In this document: piece after piece, positions 49,689 to 54,113 of the stretch | How the letters are laid out: each line of letters opens with the position of its first letter | How positions within the stretch are numbered: the first letter of the stretch is position 1 | DNA from: Escherichia phage PMBT16 | Length of the DNA: 64,000 nucleotides | Reading direction: 5' to 3' (one strand) | Sequence record: PP554575 | Notes under the pieces: generated by a model | Database searches by the model: none | What the model saw: the letters and a program-made list of their open reading frames with translations, nothing else | What the model was told of the DNA's origin: nothing | Position numbers and translations under genes: made by a program

Positions 49689-49736
49689 GTTTATTTTTAG
49701 ATGGCCTTGACTCCAGGGCCATCAATAAAGTAAACT
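49689..49736 (+). promoter_or_regulatory. Repeated palindrome/promoter element, copy 1
   Basis: TTTATTTTTA-GATGGCC-TTGACTCCAG-GGCCATC-AATAAAGTAAAC; 7-bp inverted repeat encloses a TTGACT -35-like hexamer. Confidence 0.5.
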
Positions 49737-49768
49737 AATCCCAGTTAAGCGAAAAAGGAGGCTTGAAG

Positions 49769-49888
49769 ATGAGCACTACACGCCAGCACACAAAGGTAAC
49801 TATTATCGTTTGCATCATTGGTTACATCCTGGCGCAAATGTTGATGGGTAGCGCCAATGATTTCGCAAAATTTTTCTTAAACTTTTAA
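49769..49888 (+). CDS. Small hydrophobic peptide (39 aa, unlisted)
   Basis: ATG after AAAAAGGAGG; TM-like segment VTIIVCIIGYILAQMLMG. Confidence 0.4.
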   Translation: MSTTRQHTKVTIIVCIIGYILAQMLMGSANDFAKFFLNF

Positions 49889-49916
49889 TTGACAAGCTAA
49901 CTTAAATCAGTATAAT
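49889..49916 (+). promoter_or_regulatory. sigma70-type promoter
   Basis: TTGACA-16 nt-TATAAT. Confidence 0.6.
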
Positions 49917-49968
49917 ACTAAGCACATAAACGGGAAAACTTCCCAGAACACCAAAAGGAGAAAACATT

Positions 49969-50319
49969 ATGAATACTTCCATCACTATGACCGCCGAAGA
50001 AAAAGCCCTGCAGATCGCCGCTCTGAAAAAACAGATCGCAGACCTTGAGAATAAGATCGATAACTTTGAAATCGACGAGGACAAGTACGACGATAAATAT
50101 GATGAATGGTTGGACGAGATCTACGGCGAAATTATGATCGGAAACATTTCTTTTCTTCCGTCGCGTATCCTCAAGGAGCTAGATCCTATCGCTTACCGCT
50201 GCGGATTTAGCGACTACATCGACAGCCTGGATATTGAGGACGATGAAGAATACCAGGAATTACAGACAGAGCTTGAAGAAGTGAAAGAAGAGCTTGCAGA
50301 ACTGGAAGAAAACGAGTAA
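49969..50319 (+). CDS. Acidic coiled-coil protein (116 aa)
   Basis: RBS AAAGGAGAAAACATT; Glu/Asp-rich heptad-like sequence. Confidence 0.5.
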   Translation: MNTSITMTAEEKALQIAALKKQIADLENKIDNFEIDEDKYDDKYDEWLDEIYGEIMIGNISFLPSRILKELDPIAYRCGFSDYIDSLDIEDDEEYQELQTELEEVKEELAELEENE

Positions 50320-50368
50320 ATTTATTTTTAGATGGCCTTGACTTCAGGGCCATCAATAAAGTAAACTT
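50319..50368 (+). promoter_or_regulatory. Repeated palindrome/promoter element, copy 2
   Basis: AAATTTATTTTTA-GATGGCC-TTGACTTCAG-GGCCATC-AATAAAGTAAAC. Confidence 0.5.
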
Positions 50369-50408
50369 TAGACTGTTAACACTTAACCAATACAGAGGAG
50401 TTAAAACC

Positions 50409-50654
50409 ATGGCCGCACTAATTACCAAATATTATGCCCCTACCAACACCAAAAGCGCCCGTATCATGGTAAAAGGCTTCGGACGTAAAAAGGTGTACAC
50501 CTGGGATTATTCCCTAGACATGGAAGACAACTACACCAACGCGATGACAGATTTTATTAATGAGCTGAACACGCGGATCTTGACAAATTATAAAATTACC
50601 GATATTGCCTATATAGGGGAAGGCGGGATCTGTTTTGTCGGTATCGTCAAATAA
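50409..50654 (+). CDS. Hypothetical protein (81 aa)
   Basis: RBS AGAGGAG. Confidence 0.5.
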   Translation: MAALITKYYAPTNTKSARIMVKGFGRKKVYTWDYSLDMEDNYTNAMTDFINELNTRILTNYKITDIAYIGEGGICFVGIVK

Positions 50655-50730
50655 ACTGTTTTTTCGGTGGTCCTGGTAGCAGGGCCATCTATAAAGATAG
50701 TTTATCAGCACAATGAAAGGAGAAAGTAAC

Positions 50731-51084
50731 ATGATCAGCGGGGCAAGTTTTATTATTGGCGCTATTGCTACGGCTTTAATTGTAAACAAGATCCAATCCA
50801 AAAACGAAAAAGAGAGCAACGCGCTTACAGAATACCCATTTTGGGTATTCAACGACAATGAAGACTACATTATCAAGTACAAGGATGAGAAAGGGGACCA
50901 GGTAACACCGAGACCGATACCAGCTTACAAGATGCAAGAAACATTATACCGCTTAAAGGCTGGCGGCGCAAAAATCGTAGACTTTTGGGGATATGATTGC
51001 AAGGATCAGGAGACTATAAAACGTCGTATCCGGGCGATTCAGGCAAATATTGAGATCAGTAAAGGGGGCGTTTATGAAAATTAA
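50731..51084 (+). CDS. Putative membrane-anchored protein (117 aa)
   Basis: ATG after AAAGGAGAAAG; N-terminal hydrophobic segment ASFIIGAIATALIV. Confidence 0.45.
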   Translation: MISGASFIIGAIATALIVNKIQSKNEKESNALTEYPFWVFNDNEDYIIKYKDEKGDQVTPRPIPAYKMQETLYRLKAGGAKIVDFWGYDCKDQETIKRRIRAIQANIEISKGGVYEN

Positions 51085-51271
51085 TTTCGAAAAAATTGTA
51101 AAGCGCCCCCACGATTCCGAAGAGCTGCCGGAACGCCGCCAGCGTAACAATAAACTGAATAAACCGAAAAGGTTCGGGAAGATCTGGAGAAATCACTATG
51201 ATCGCAAATTACCGAGCCTGCTTTTGGAACGTGAACGACAGGCGGAACGATACCGCCACAAAGACAAATAG
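51074..51271 (+). CDS. Small highly basic protein (65 aa), possible nucleic-acid binder
   Basis: ATG overlapping upstream gene end; Arg/Lys-rich (RRQRNNKLNKPKRFGK). Confidence 0.4.
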   Translation: MKINFEKIVKRPHDSEELPERRQRNNKLNKPKRFGKIWRNHYDRKLPSLLLERERQAERYRHKDK

Positions 51272-51279
51272 CAACCAAC

Positions 51280-51306
51280 GCCCCGCCATTGTGCGGGGCT
51301 TTTTAT
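51280..51306 (+). terminator. Rho-independent terminator
   Basis: GCCCCGC-CATTGT-GCGGGGC followed by TTTTTATTT. Confidence 0.7.
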
Positions 51307-51452
51307 TTCTATCCCTCCGATAGCGCCCCTGGTTGGCCCTACAAGCGCCATAAAGGCCCCTACCTATGCAATCCCCTTTCTTAACCTGAAAACAGCGTCT
51401 AGGGCCGTTTTATGGCGTTAAAAATATTATTGACAGTGATTCTATTTAAAGC

Positions 51453-51481
51453 TTGACACCTTGGGATAGTCCGGATATACT
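51453..51481 (+). promoter_or_regulatory. sigma70-type promoter
   Basis: TTGACA-17 nt-TATACT. Confidence 0.6.
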
Positions 51482-52512: not shown

Positions 52513-52565
52513 AAACTCAAGGGGGCAAGACGTTTGCCCCCACACAAAACAAATAGGAAAACATC

Positions 52566-52946
52566 ATGAAAAGCACCACTAAAGCCATTGACACCGTTAT
52601 GTTTAACCTGGTTACCTTTCGCGAGGATATGAAAGATCTTCCACGTGAAACAGTGTGCGATCACATTGAAAACTATCGCAAACTAATCAAAGAGTTGCCT
52701 TTAAAACGTGACCAGTACGCGGCTAATGCTATGCTTAATGCCATGATCAAAAAGATGATTCAGTGTGATTTAACTCTGGCCTATGATTATGCAGGCGGTC
52801 GTTTTGCAGTGTACAATCAGCCCGTGCCCGGTATGGGCACCACCGAAGAATTGCACGCGCTCAATCTAAAACAAGACGTGTGGGATAGTATGCCCCGCGT
52901 GGTGGTGTGGGCAGAAAGCGGGAAGATTTACGGCGATAATTTTTAA
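52566..52946 (+). CDS. Hypothetical protein (126 aa)
   Basis: RBS ATAGGAAAACATC. Confidence 0.5.
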   Translation: MKSTTKAIDTVMFNLVTFREDMKDLPRETVCDHIENYRKLIKELPLKRDQYAANAMLNAMIKKMIQCDLTLAYDYAGGRFAVYNQPVPGMGTTEELHALNLKQDVWDSMPRVVVWAESGKIYGDNF

Positions 52947-52955
52947 TCAGGTAAC

Positions 52956-52986
52956 AGGCGGCGGCATATTTGCCGCCTTATTGTTA
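52956..52986 (+). terminator. Probable terminator
   Basis: AGGCGGCGGC-ATATT-TGCCGCCTT hairpin followed by ATTGTT. Confidence 0.45.
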
Positions 52987-53013
52987 AACAGAACTGCAAA
53001 AGAGGTACATAGA

Positions 53014-53385
53014 ATGGAATTTATTATTTTGGCCGTATTAGTTGCCTTGTTTAACGCCTGGATCGCTGGCAAGATGGGTAGATCCGCCTTTTTATGGTTT
53101 ATTATATCTATTTTCTTGGGGGTGGTTGCAACTATTGTGCTTGTTATCCTTGCAATTGTTGACAAAGGCGATAATAGAAAGGGTAAAGTATTCTCCGACC
53201 TGTATGACGCGCAAACATTTGTCAACGCCTATTATAGTGATCTTCCAGTCTCCCTACGTTGCAGCCTGGCACACCAAGTTTTTGATGAGGCTAAAACCAG
53301 AGATCAAGCCCATGAGATATGTTTAACTGAGGCGGATCGCCTATTTGAGAGGAATAGAAAATATGTGGGCCAACCGTTTAAATAA
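53014..53385 (+). CDS. Putative membrane protein (123 aa)
   Basis: ATG after AAGAGG; two hydrophobic segments (FIILAVLVALFNAWIAG, FLWFIISIFLGVVATIVLVILAIV). Confidence 0.45.
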   Translation: MEFIILAVLVALFNAWIAGKMGRSAFLWFIISIFLGVVATIVLVILAIVDKGDNRKGKVFSDLYDAQTFVNAYYSDLPVSLRCSLAHQVFDEAKTRDQAHEICLTEADRLFERNRKYVGQPFK

Positions 53386-53608
53386 TACCACGTTAATTAA
53401 TCCCTTTAGTGAAGATTTAAAGCCAGCCGCCTGGCGTGATAGATTCAATAACGAACGCTTTATTTTCAGGCCTGATCTTGAGGAATTTTATAACAATGGA
53501 TCGAACAACGACAGAGATAATTTTTCTTGTGGTGTGCGTAGTGATGGTACTCCTGGGGGCCATTGTAAACAACGTCACTACTACCAGGAGGAAAGGGGGA
53601 GACGATGA
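53363..53608 (+). CDS. Hypothetical protein (81 aa)
   Basis: ATG after GAGAGGAATAGAAAAT; stop overlaps the start of the next ORF (ATGA). Confidence 0.35.
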   Translation: MWANRLNNTTLINPFSEDLKPAAWRDRFNNERFIFRPDLEEFYNNGSNNDRDNFSCGVRSDGTPGGHCKQRHYYQEERGRR

Positions 53609-53724
53609 CACCCAAGGATAAGCCACGCACCAATAAGGCGCGCCGTGTTATGGTGTGGCTGGAGATCATCGCCCTTGAAATATTGCTAGGCGTAGGGATG
53701 TACTTTATCGCAGTAAGTAACTAA
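53605..53724 (+). CDS. Small membrane peptide (39 aa, unlisted)
   Basis: RBS AGGAGGAAAGGGGGAG; hydrophobic core VMVWLEIIALEILLGVGMYFIAV. Confidence 0.35.
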   Translation: MTPKDKPRTNKARRVMVWLEIIALEILLGVGMYFIAVSN

Positions 53725-53728
53725 GAAC

Positions 53729-53757
53729 GGCCCCCGATCATGGGGGCTTATCTTTTT
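53729..53757 (+). terminator. Rho-independent terminator
   Basis: GCCCCCGATCATGGGGGC hairpin followed by TTATCTTTTT. Confidence 0.7.
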
Positions 53758-53778
53758 AAAAATTTTTCTTCCAGGGTG

Positions 53779-53806
53779 TTGCAATCCGGTCCGGAATGTG
53801 GATAAT
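53779..53806 (+). promoter_or_regulatory. sigma70-type promoter
   Basis: TTGCAA-16 nt-GATAAT. Confidence 0.5.
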
Positions 53807-53862
53807 GACAATCAACGGGGAGCTAATCCCCACCAACACAAAAACCAGAAAGGAGAAACAAA

Positions 53863-54063
53863 ATGAGCAACAATATCCGCGTTATTAACTTCAAAAAAGA
53901 AGAAAAAATTGCCGTGCTGATTGACGGTCAAGAAATCTTCAAGGGCGATTATGAAGATCATCAAACGGCGATTAGTATCACTCGCGTGATCGGTTACCAT
54001 AATTTCTACCCCCAAGGCGCTGAGGCAGCAGTTAAACGAATCAAAGAGATTGTAGGCCTGTAA
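53863..54063 (+). CDS. Hypothetical protein (66 aa)
   Basis: RBS AAAGGAGAAACAAA. Confidence 0.5.
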   Translation: MSNNIRVINFKKEEKIAVLIDGQEIFKGDYEDHQTAISITRVIGYHNFYPQGAEAAVKRIKEIVGL

Positions 54064-54113
54064 AATTTATTTTTAGATGGCCTTGACTTCAGGGCCATCA
54101 ATAAAGTAAATTT
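54063..54113 (+). promoter_or_regulatory. Repeated palindrome/promoter element, copy 3
   Basis: AAATTTATTTTTA-GATGGCC-TTGACTTCAG-GGCCATC-AATAAAGTAAAT. Confidence 0.5.

What the first reader, a model, noticed from the sequence alone, without database searches (positions are those of the whole stretch)
49689..54113. Recurrent 45-50 bp intergenic element: palindrome GATGGCC-N10-GGCCATC enclosing a TTGACT -35 box
Three near-identical copies (49689-49736, 50319-50368, 54063-54113) each start right after a stop codon with TTTATTTTTA, carry a 7-bp perfect inverted repeat around a -35-like TTGACT, and end with AATAAAGTAAA(C/T). Degenerate relatives occur at 50660-50700 and 58175-58200 (GGTAGCAGGGCCAT). 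The flanks do not fit a canonical terminator (the T-tract precedes the hairpin), so a protein operator overlapping a promoter, or an RNA processing signal, is more likely. A shared operator would imply a dedicated regulator for this gene set.
Basis: seen in the sequence. Interest (0 to 1): 0.6.

Follow-up and report, generated by a model that had tools for sequence, protein, structure and literature searches.

The report
T7-style RNA processing hairpins in rV5-like phage
The repeated 50-base intergenic element is real, but it is best read as an RNA hairpin built like the RNase III cutting sites of phage T7, which separates and stabilises early messages and also serves as a recombination point, rather than as a protein operator over a promoter.

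Summary
The window is an rV5-like coliphage (Vequintavirus). There are three near-identical copies at 49687-49737, 50318-50368 and 54063-54113, and one diverged copy at 50653-50703. All lie on the coding strand, each starting at the stop codon of a small early gene. The 58175-58200 "relative" is only a 15-nt fragment with no hairpin.

On the sense strand each copy folds into a two-part hairpin. It has an 11-bp A/U lower stem, a 2x3-nt internal loop (UA/AAU), a 10-bp G/C upper stem with U.G wobble, and a tetraloop.

Across 17 genomes the upper stem is about 20 times less variable than the flanks, and every change keeps pairing through sense-strand wobble. The lower stem shows compensatory changes, and the loop (half of "TTGACT") is the most variable part. 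The diverged copy keeps the fold but lacks TTGACT.

A covariance model built only from T7's five early RNase III sites ranks the three copies first in the 64-kb window. The reverse model finds T7/T3 RNase III sites.

Best reading: T7-type RNase III processing and stabiliser hairpins. They also behave like T4-type PeSL cassettes, because recombination between two copies deleted a 631-bp module in some relatives. A weak embedded promoter is not excluded. A new member of a known kind.

The parts
49687..49737 (+). Element E1, between the 131-aa gene (rV5 ORF194 equivalent) and the 39-aa gene. Lower stem 49687-49697/49727-49737; internal loop TA 49698-49699 and AAT 49724-49726; upper stem 49700-49709/49714-49723; loop ACTC 49710-49713. 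Predicted RNase III cut after 49726.
50318..50368 (+). Element E2, between the 116-aa coiled-coil gene (ORF192 equivalent) and the 81-aa gene (ORF191 equivalent). Lower stem 50318-50328/50358-50368; upper stem 50331-50340/50345-50354; loop ACTT 50341-50344; 3' internal loop AAT 50355-50357. Predicted cut after 50357.
50653..50703 (+). Element E4, the diverged copy, between the 81-aa gene and the 117-aa gene. Lower stem 50653-50663/50693-50703; upper stem GGTGGTCCTG/CAGGGCCATC 50666-50675/50680-50689 with two G.U pairs; loop GTAG; 3' internal loop TAT 50690-50692. No TTGAC motif. Predicted cut after 50692.
54063..54113 (+). Element E3, between the 66-aa gene (ORF179 equivalent) and the 99-aa gene. 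Lower stem 54063-54073/54103-54113; upper stem 54076-54085/54090-54099; loop ACTT; 3' internal loop AAT 54100-54102. Predicted cut after 54102.
49707..49736 (+). Promoter-like hexamers inside E1: TTGACT-N18-TAAACT, 9 of 12. The same pattern is at 50338-50367, and as TTGACT-N18-TAAATT at 54083-54112. Possible weak sigma-70 promoter; absent from E4. Uncertain part.
   Evidence: variation
49738..50317 (+). Module between E1 and E2: 39-aa gene, a strong promoter with a 5' hairpin, and the 116-aa gene. This module plus one copy of the repeat (631 bp, the E1-to-E2 spacing) is missing from phage ECP32 and from viral contig L011, where a single chimeric E1/E2 element remains.

Best explanation
The four elements act in the sense-strand RNA of the early polycistronic transcripts made by host RNA polymerase. 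Each folds into a hairpin of about two helical turns, built like the RNase III processing signals of the T7 group. Host RNase III is inferred to bind it and cut once, in the 3' side of the internal loop (GGCCAUCAAU^AAAG, 13 nt after the tetraloop). This would leave the upstream message ending in a stable hairpin that blocks 3' exonucleases, and give the downstream cistron its own 5' end about 30-55 nt before its start codon.

Because three copies are nearly identical direct repeats, they also serve as crossover points for homologous recombination. That recombination removes or moves the small-gene modules between them, as described for PeSL cassettes of T4-type phages.

Shown here: the repeats, the strand-specific conserved fold, the covariation, the resemblance to T7/T3 sites, and the chimeric deletion junction. 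Inferred: cleavage by RNase III, the exact cut position, and the effect on message stability.
For: 1. Fold. Sense-strand RNA folds at -21.6 to -28.2 kcal/mol, z-scores -5.0 to -6.5. The antisense strand gives only -12.9 to -19.0. The covariance model scores 75-82 bits on the + strand against 33-46 on the - strand.

2. Covariation. In 41 distinct sequences from 17 genomes the upper helix is 100% paired. Its four variable pairs change only to sense-strand wobble pairs (A-U to G.U, C-G to U.G, U.G to C-G). Four lower-helix pairs show changes on both sides. The covariation score is 0.187 against 0.121 in shuffles (0 of 500 reach it) and at most 0.059 for slid partners.

3. Selection pattern. Pairwise diversity is 0.003-0.006 in the upper stem, 0.079 and 0.094 in the flanks, and 0.236 in the terminal loop.

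4. The fold is kept where TTGAC is lost: in E4, and in sequence-divergent relatives in phage CAjan, whose upper-stem sequences are completely different.

5. Resemblance to known RNase III sites.
- Model R2, built only from the five T7 early sites, was run over the whole window with filters off. Its top three hits are E1, E3 and E2 (E 6e-5, 1.2e-3, 1.6e-3). E4 is fifth. All are full-length and on the + strand.
- Model R1, built only from the window's copies, finds T7 R0.3, R1.1 and R1 in register among its four hits in the T7 early region.
- R1's only hit in the T3 early region is the site annotated 'RNase III recognition site R1'.
- R1's best hit in a T7-like Klebsiella phage lies just upstream of a 2.7-kb gene that, by size and position, I take to be its RNA polymerase gene (the record names no products), which is where R1 lies in T7.
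- T7 and T3 R1 share the same 2x3 internal loop, UA/AAU.

6. Geometry. The 3' arm of 10 nt plus AAU places the predicted cut 13 nt after the loop, as in T7 R1.1. Internal loops are known to limit RNase III to one cut, leaving a protective 3' hairpin (PMC1540722). T7 early RNA is cut at five intercistronic sites (PMC4858673).

7. Context. The elements lie inside operons fed by strong sigma-70 promoters, between cistrons, and canonical terminators are used elsewhere in the same region.

8. Recombination. ECP32 and viral contig L011 carry one chimeric element, with the E1 left flank and the E2 right flank, in place of E1-module-E2.
Against: - No experimental data exist for this phage group. No paper on RNase III or transcript mapping in Vequintavirinae was found.
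- The broader T7+T3 model (R3) still ranks the copies 1st, 4th and 5th, but with weak E-values of 0.08-4. The resemblance is therefore architectural, not proof of homology.
- By the rules for the minimal R1.1 substrate, the distal-box position 1 is C-G rather than the optimal U-A, and proximal-box positions 1 and 3 also differ (PMC1540722). Reactivity could be low.
- The near-identity of three copies, the invariant first two loop bases, and the better conservation of the 3' than the 5' strand of the lower stem (0.026 against 0.08) exceed what a purely structural signal needs. They would also fit an embedded promoter or a sequence-specific binding protein.
- The T7 cleavage coordinates used for the register come from my memory of Dunn and Studier 1983. 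Only the T3 sites are annotated in a record I could read.
Confidence: 0.55

Rival explanations
1. Composite promoter and stem-loop cassette (PeSL type). The three canonical copies are primarily weak sigma-70 promoters: an A/T-rich UP-like tract, TTGACT, an 18-bp spacer and TAAACT. Their overlapping stem-loop attenuates read-through from upstream, so each downstream ORFan is expressed from its own cassette.
For: The promoter scan lists TTGACT-N18-TAAACT/TAAATT at 9 of 12 for E1-E3. TTGAC is kept in 28 of 30 distinct canonical sequences, while the sixth position varies freely, as in real -35 boxes. The 3' strand of the lower stem, which holds the -10, is more conserved than its partner strand. 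PeSLs are described as a stop codon in an AT-rich tract, a sigma-70 promoter and a stem-loop that may overlap the -35, followed by the ribosome-binding site and start codon of the next gene, and they recombine to delete ORFans (PMC2839356). That is the same anatomy and behaviour as here. In T7 and T3 the host C promoter overlaps the R1 hairpin.
Against: The match is much poorer than the real promoters of this region, which are TTGACA-N16/17-TATAAT/TATACT at 10-12 of 12. E4 and the CAjan and Klebsiella relatives keep the hairpin without a -35. The same 'first two loop bases fixed, last two free' pattern occurs in E4, where no -35 exists. A promoter does not explain the wobble-only substitutions or the conserved 5' arm upstream of the -35. 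No U-tract follows the hairpin, so attenuation would be weak.
Confidence: 0.2
2. RNA hairpin with a role that does not involve RNase III. It could be a passive 3'-exonuclease barrier after cleavage elsewhere, like bacterial REP elements. It could be a binding site for a phage RNA-binding protein, or a non-canonical attenuator.
For: All the evidence for a sense-strand RNA structure applies equally. The Murica record annotates two copies as 45-nt terminators. The strong sequence identity of three copies would suit a sequence-specific RNA-binding protein.
Against: This reading does not explain the specific match to T7/T3 RNase III signals: the 2x3 internal loop UA/AAU below a 10-bp stem, and the reciprocal model hits. 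Ordinary terminator hairpins in the window are not picked up by the T7-site model.
Confidence: 0.15
3. DNA operator. A dimeric phage or host DNA-binding protein recognises GATGGCC-N10-GGCCATC and controls a shared promoter.
For: There is a perfect 7-bp inverted repeat in three copies, near-identity of these copies, and overlap with a -35-like hexamer.
Against: The half-site centres are 17 bp apart. Every asymmetry is a transition that gives G.U on the sense strand and would give A.C on the other, in about 6 of 6 cases. The A/T flanks pair as a second stem with compensatory changes, which an operator does not need. Relatives in CAjan keep the fold with unrelated arm sequences. There are only four sites in 138 kb, all after stop codons.
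Confidence: 0.04
4. Intrinsic (Rho-independent) terminator.
For: There is a stable G/C-rich hairpin directly after stop codons. Two copies are annotated as terminators in phage Murica.
Against: The hairpin is followed by AAUAAAGUAAA, not a U-tract. After the full 45-nt hairpin there are at most three U. None of the four is found by the terminator scan, while canonical terminators occur nearby at 51280, 52956, 53729 and 54858. The rV5, EdH4 and Alma annotations do not list them.
Confidence: 0.05

Closest known systems
RNase III processing signals of the T7 group (T7/T3 R0.3, R0.5, R1, R1.1, R1.3), especially R1
   Same: Both are intercistronic in early polycistronic RNA made by host polymerase. 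Both are hairpins of about two helical turns, with a 9-10-bp upper stem containing U.G wobble, a 4-5-nt loop, an asymmetric internal loop and an A/U-rich lower stem. R1 of T7 and T3 has the identical internal loop UA/AAU. Reciprocal covariance-model hits support the match. A host promoter overlaps the T7/T3 R1 hairpin.
   Different: The host phage is an unrelated myovirus. The T7-group consensus AAGGUC...GUGGCCUUUAUGAU is not present. The lower stem is longer and more regular (11 bp). Distal-box position 1 is C-G. Three copies are nearly identical to each other. Cleavage is untested.
PeSL (promoter-early stem-loop) cassettes of T4-type phages RB49/phi1 (Arbiol et al. 2010, PMC2839356; Comeau et al. 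2014, PMC4122927)
   Same: Both are repeated intergenic cassettes in a region of small ORFans. Both start at the upstream stop codon in an A/T-rich tract, with a stem-loop that may overlap a -35 box and G.T pairs in the stem. Recombination between neighbouring copies deletes the genes between them and leaves a chimeric copy.
   Different: PeSLs number about 50 per genome and are built around consensus-strength sigma-70 promoters, with stem-loops reported to terminate. Here there are four copies, the promoter match is weak and is absent from one copy, and the conserved feature is a T7-like bipartite RNA hairpin. There is no sequence similarity to RB49.
Bacterial REP / intercistronic stabiliser hairpins
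   Same: Both are repeated imperfect palindromes after stop codons inside operons, and both could protect upstream RNA from 3' exonucleases.
   Different: There is no sequence relation. The bipartite geometry with a 2x3 internal loop is specific to RNase III signals.

Membership tests
T7-group RNase III processing signal | Lies between cistrons in an early polycistronic transcript made by host RNA polymerase | tested here: met
   All four copies lie between + strand small genes, downstream of strong sigma-70 promoters and upstream of the next canonical terminator. In rV5 they fall between ORFs 194/193, 192/191, 191/190 and 179/178, inside the paper's transcription unit 10-1-238-164.
T7-group RNase III processing signal | Hairpin of about two helical turns: 9-10-bp upper stem, small loop, asymmetric internal loop, lower stem | tested here: met
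   Minimum-free-energy folds show 10 bp + tetraloop + 2x3 internal loop + 11 bp. T7/T3 sites folded the same way give the same layout, and R1 has the same UA/AAU loop.
T7-group RNase III processing signal | Recognised by a covariance model of the known sites, and the reverse | tested here: met
   R2 (T7 sites): E1, E3 and E2 are the top three hits in 64 kb, E 6e-5 to 1.6e-3. R1 finds T7 R0.3, R1.1 and R1, the annotated T3 R1 site and the R1-position site of a T7-like Klebsiella phage at E 5.6e-4. Caveat: R3 (T7+T3) keeps the ranks 1, 4 and 5 but with E 0.08-4.
T7-group RNase III processing signal | Proximal- and distal-box base pairs compatible with E. coli RNase III (A-U or U-A at pb2; no G-C at pb4; UA/UG distal box) | tested here: inconclusive
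   By register with R1.1: pb2 is A-U (favourable), the pb4 position falls in the internal loop (as in R1.1), and db2 is U.G (matches). However db1 is C-G and pb1 is U-A, which are non-optimal under the rules in PMC1540722. T7 R1 also has a G/C pair at pb3.
T7-group RNase III processing signal | Cleaved by RNase III in vivo or in vitro | not testable with these tools
   No transcript-end data for Vequintavirus were found.
PeSL cassette | Intergenic repeat spanning from the upstream stop codon in an A/T-rich tract to the downstream ribosome-binding site and start codon, in an ORFan-rich plastic region | tested here: met
   The stop codon sits at alignment columns 3-5 (2-4 in E3). All ten neighbouring proteins belong to PHROG families of unknown function.
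PeSL cassette | Consensus-strength sigma-70 early promoter | tested here: inconclusive
   TTGACT-N18-TAAACT, 9 of 12, in E1-E3 only, and none in E4. Activity was not tested.
PeSL cassette | Recombination between neighbouring copies removes the intervening genes and leaves a chimeric copy | tested here: met
   ECP32 (L029) and viral contig L011 have the E1 left flank, one element and the E2 right flank. phiWec189 and magaca also have only two BLAST places.
Intrinsic terminator | G/C-rich hairpin followed directly by a U-tract | tested here: not met
   The 3' flank is AAUAAAGUAAA, and the copies are not listed by the terminator scan.
Operator of a dimeric DNA-binding protein | Half-site conservation at the DNA level, independent of strand and of pairing | tested here: not met
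   All asymmetries and polymorphisms in the arms are sense-strand G.U-preserving transitions. The arm sequence is replaced wholesale in the CAjan relatives while pairing is kept.

The most novel reading that the evidence does not exclude
The hairpin may be a portable 'processing-site linker' shared across unrelated coliphage lineages. The same small gene (rV5 ORF191 / CAjan gp69, 43% amino-acid identity by tblastn) is flanked on both sides by this type of hairpin in a Vequintavirus myovirus and in a Seuratvirus siphovirus. The nearest structural relatives are the R1 RNase III sites of T7-like podoviruses. Hairpin-gene-hairpin cassettes might therefore move between phage families by recombination at the hairpins, carrying their own RNA-processing signals, so that a newly acquired gene is immediately excised as a stable monocistronic message.
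Probability: 0.25. Interest if true: 0.6.

Novelty: new member of a known kind. Interest (0 to 1): 0.4.

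Why it matters
If confirmed, rV5-like phages, which are widely used as therapy and biocontrol candidates and whose roughly 75 small early genes are almost all of unknown function, would be shown to process their early messages with host RNase III as T7 does. That would give a handle on how these ORFans are expressed individually, and a testable host dependency (rnc). The chimeric junctions show that the same repeats are the breakpoints where early-gene modules are lost or exchanged. 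This extends the PeSL idea of regulatory cassettes as recombination linkers beyond T4-type phages. It also helps annotation: these sites are currently unannotated or labelled as terminators.

Tried and rejected
- Rfam scan of 45000-64000 at E up to 1 found nothing on the elements.
- An IMG/VR scan for the 17-mer CAGGGCCATCWATAAAG gave 15 loci. Only three, from two rV5-like contigs, hold real elements; the rest are chance matches with no model hit.
- The rV5 paper's promoter and terminator tables contain neither GATGGCC nor GGCCATC.
- 58175-58200 was rejected as a copy.
- I tried to score the hairpins with the in-vivo RNase III matrix of Altuvia et al. 2018, but its supplementary table is not held.
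- I tried to confirm the T7 cleavage coordinates from the T7 records NC_001604 and V01146. The RNase III features are not shown there, and Li et al. 1993 is not held. I used the T3 record, which annotates the sites, instead.
- Homologues of ORF191 in Pseudomonas phages are followed by an ordinary terminator (KIL3b) or by a different hairpin (PPpW-4). The cassette is therefore not universal.
- Pfam and PHROGs gave no function for the flanking genes apart from the T7 gp1.1 family hit.

Full report
**Identity of the window**

The region 47000-56000 matches about 200 Escherichia phages of the rV5 type (Vequintavirus) at 90-95% identity. The element lies in the long leftward early unit of rV5, which is the + strand of the window. 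This stretch is made of small genes of unknown function fed by many consensus sigma-70 promoters.

**The observation**

The three near-identical copies are real:
- 49687-49737, 50318-50368 and 54063-54113, with 0-1 mismatch over 45 nt and none expected by chance.
- The degenerate copy at 50653-50703 belongs to the family.
- The site at 58175-58200 does not. It shares 15 nt with the loop and 3' arm of the degenerate copy and sits in the non-coding tract after the last early gene. It has no complementary arm, and the model does not detect it.

A covariance model of the element finds exactly four copies in the window and in the complete rV5 genome, all on the coding strand. BLAST finds the element in 120 phage records, all rV5-like, with two to four places each and three in nearly all rows listed.

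**Anatomy**

The T-tract before the palindrome and the A-rich tail after it pair with each other. On the sense strand each copy folds as:
- an 11-bp A/U-rich lower stem that includes a U.G pair and starts within the stop codon of the upstream gene;
- an internal loop of 2 nt (UA) on the 5' side and 3 nt (AAU, or UAU in the diverged copy) on the 3' side;
- a 10-bp G/C-rich upper stem with a U.G pair;
- a tetraloop.

The folds are at -21.6 to -28.2 kcal/mol with z-scores of -5.0 to -6.5. The reverse complement folds at only -12.9 to -19.0. The model scores 75-82 bits on the + strand against 33-46 on the - strand.

**Comparative evidence**

I aligned 65 copies (41 distinct) from the window, 14 GenBank relatives and two related metagenome-derived viral contigs.

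- The upper helix is paired in 100% of cells. Its four variable pairs change only to sense-strand wobble pairs.
- The lower helix has four pairs with changes on both sides (for example U-A / G.U / A-U at one pair and A-U / U-A at the next).
- The covariation score is 0.187, against 0.121 for shuffles (0 of 500 reach it) and at most 0.059 when partners are slid.

| Part of the element | Mean pairwise diversity |
|---|---|
| Flanks | 0.079 and 0.094 |
| Upper stem | 0.003-0.006 |
| 5' internal loop | 0 |
| 3' internal loop | 0.04 |
| Terminal loop | 0.236 |

The loop contains half of the "TTGACT" hexamer. Its third and fourth bases take all values (ACTC, ACTT, ACAC, ACGC, ACCC, ACTA, ATTC). The diverged copy keeps the whole architecture with loop GTAG and no TTGAC motif. 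A selected sense-strand RNA structure explains all of this. A DNA operator or a promoter alone does not.

**Resemblance to RNase III signals**

T7 early RNA is cut by host RNase III at five intercistronic sites (PMC4858673). Internal loops restrict cutting to one strand and leave a protective 3' hairpin (PMC1540722).

- Folded in the same way, the T7 and T3 sites show the same layout. R1 of both phages has the identical 2x3 internal loop UA/AAU under a 9-bp stem with a tetraloop.
- A model built only from the window's four copies, run over 6 kb of T7 early DNA, gave four hits. Three are R0.3, R1.1 and R1 in full-length register, with the T7 cleavage coordinate falling on the last base of the 3-nt loop. 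Those coordinates come from my memory of Dunn and Studier 1983.
- In T3, where the record annotates the sites, the only hit is the annotated R1 site.
- In a T7-like Klebsiella phage the best hit (E 5.6e-4) lies just upstream of a 2.7-kb gene that, by size and position, I take to be its RNA polymerase gene (the record names no products). That is the R1 position.
- Conversely, a model built only from the five T7 sites and run unfiltered over the whole window placed E1, E3 and E2 first (E 6e-5 to 1.6e-3) and E4 fifth. Ordinary terminator hairpins were ignored.
- A broader T7+T3 model kept the ranks (1, 4 and 5) but with weak E-values of 0.08-4. I therefore claim shared architecture, not proven homology.

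By register with R1.1, the predicted cut is after AAU/UAU, 13 nt beyond the loop. Against the base-pair rules for the minimal substrate, pb2 (A-U) and db2 (U.G) fit, while db1 (C-G) and pb1 do not.

**Promoter question**

The scan does list TTGACT-N18-TAAACT (9 of 12) in E1-E3.
- In favour: TTGAC is almost invariant, the sixth base is free, and the strand holding the -10 is better conserved than its partner. Host promoters do overlap R1 in T7 and T3.
- Against: E4 shows the same "two fixed, two free" loop pattern without a -35. The relatives in other phages lack TTGAC. The match is far weaker than the real promoters nearby.

I keep a weak embedded promoter as a secondary possibility.

**Recombination**

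Phage ECP32 and viral contig L011 lack the 631 bp spanning one copy of the repeat and the module between E1 and E2. They carry a single chimeric element with the E1 left flank and the E2 right flank. phiWec189 and magaca also have only two BLAST places. In Alma, EdH4, V18 and slur12, copies E1 and E2 share the loop variant ACAC while E3 does not, which suggests gene conversion.

This is the behaviour described for PeSL cassettes of T4-type phages. Their anatomy also fits: a stop codon in an A/T-rich tract, a stem-loop that may overlap the -35, and G.T pairs in the stem (PMC2839356).

**Wider family**

The 81-aa gene between E2 and E4 has homologues in Seuratvirus siphoviruses and in T7-like phages. 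In CAjan the homologue gp69 is likewise flanked on both sides by hairpins that begin at stop codons. They have similar flanks (UAAGUUU..UUAUAC / AAUAAGCNAACUAAU) but unrelated upper-stem sequences. CAjan has three such elements genome-wide, all next to its divergent early promoter region.

**Verdict**

The operator interpretation is not supported, and the "RNA processing signal" alternative is. The elements are most likely T7-type RNase III processing and stabiliser hairpins that double as recombination linkers. This is a new member of known kinds and is currently unannotated, or annotated as a terminator in one record. It is of moderate interest.

Noticed in passing
window 49217-49273, 49889-49945, 51767-51823, 55865-55927 (+): A second repeated intergenic cassette. 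It has an A/T-rich tract, a strong sigma-70 promoter (TTGACA-N16-TAnAnT), then about 10 nt later a hairpin (G)GCGGGAAnnnTTCCCGC(C) that would sit at the 5' end of the transcript (-13 to -15 kcal/mol in three copies). It resembles the PeSL subclass with the stem-loop downstream of the -10, or a 5' stabiliser. Two of these cassettes drive the genes that end in E1 and E2.
   Followed up: partly
window 54856-54890 (+): The hairpin AAGGCCAUGC-AACC-GCAUGGCCUUUAU carries the T7-group motif GGCCUUUAU. It is the 4th hit of the T7 RNase III-site model (E 0.14) and the 2nd hit of the T7+T3 model. It is followed by UAUUUUGG, so it also scans as a terminator and is annotated as one in relatives. It could be a terminator, another RNase III site, or both.
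   Followed up: partly
window 51074-51271 (+): This 65-aa protein matches Pfam PF08200 'Bacteriophage 1.1 protein' (T7 gp1.1 family) at E 1.8e-11, 44.7 bits against a cut-off of 21. It lies in the same operon, about 370 nt downstream of E4. In T7, gene 1.1 follows the R1.1 RNase III site.
   Followed up: partly
window 50409-50654 (+); L037 1415-1794 (CAjan): The 81-aa gene flanked by E2 and E4 has homologues (35-46% identity) in Seuratvirus siphoviruses, Pseudomonas myoviruses and T7-like Klebsiella and Pseudomonas phages. In CAjan the homologue is also flanked on both sides by the same type of hairpin, which suggests a mobile hairpin-gene-hairpin cassette.
   Followed up: partly
window 58185-58199 (+): The 15-nt fragment TGGTAGCAGGGCCAT is identical to the loop and 3' arm of the diverged copy. 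It lies about 170 nt after the last early gene, in the roughly 2.6-kb tract that the rV5 paper calls non-coding. It is conserved in rV5 and in viral contig L011, and may be a relic of a broken element.
   Followed up: partly
window 47617-47802 (+): Three imperfect direct repeats of about 47-57 nt spaced 65-74 nt apart (core GTACTCGATCTGTTTTTCGTTT), in a stretch where relatives annotate few or no genes. They look like iterons, but their function is unknown.
   Followed up: no
window 51345-51370, 55322-55347, 57708-57733 (+): A third family of short G/C hairpins (GGGCCGAAAAGGCCCC and variants) in intergenic positions of the same early region.
   Followed up: no
phage collection: Seventeen to 21 records named 'Campylobacter phage' (host C. 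jejuni, unannotated, 128-143 kb) are 90-94% identical to this coliphage region and carry the same elements. They are probably rV5-like coliphages deposited under a wrong host name.
   Followed up: no
terminal loop of all four elements, e.g. window 49712-49713: The third and fourth loop bases take nearly every value among otherwise 90-95% identical genomes, while the first two are fixed. This holds in the canonical copies (AC) and in the diverged copy (GT/GC). The last two may simply be neutral sites, but the fixed first two bases are unexplained.
   Followed up: partly
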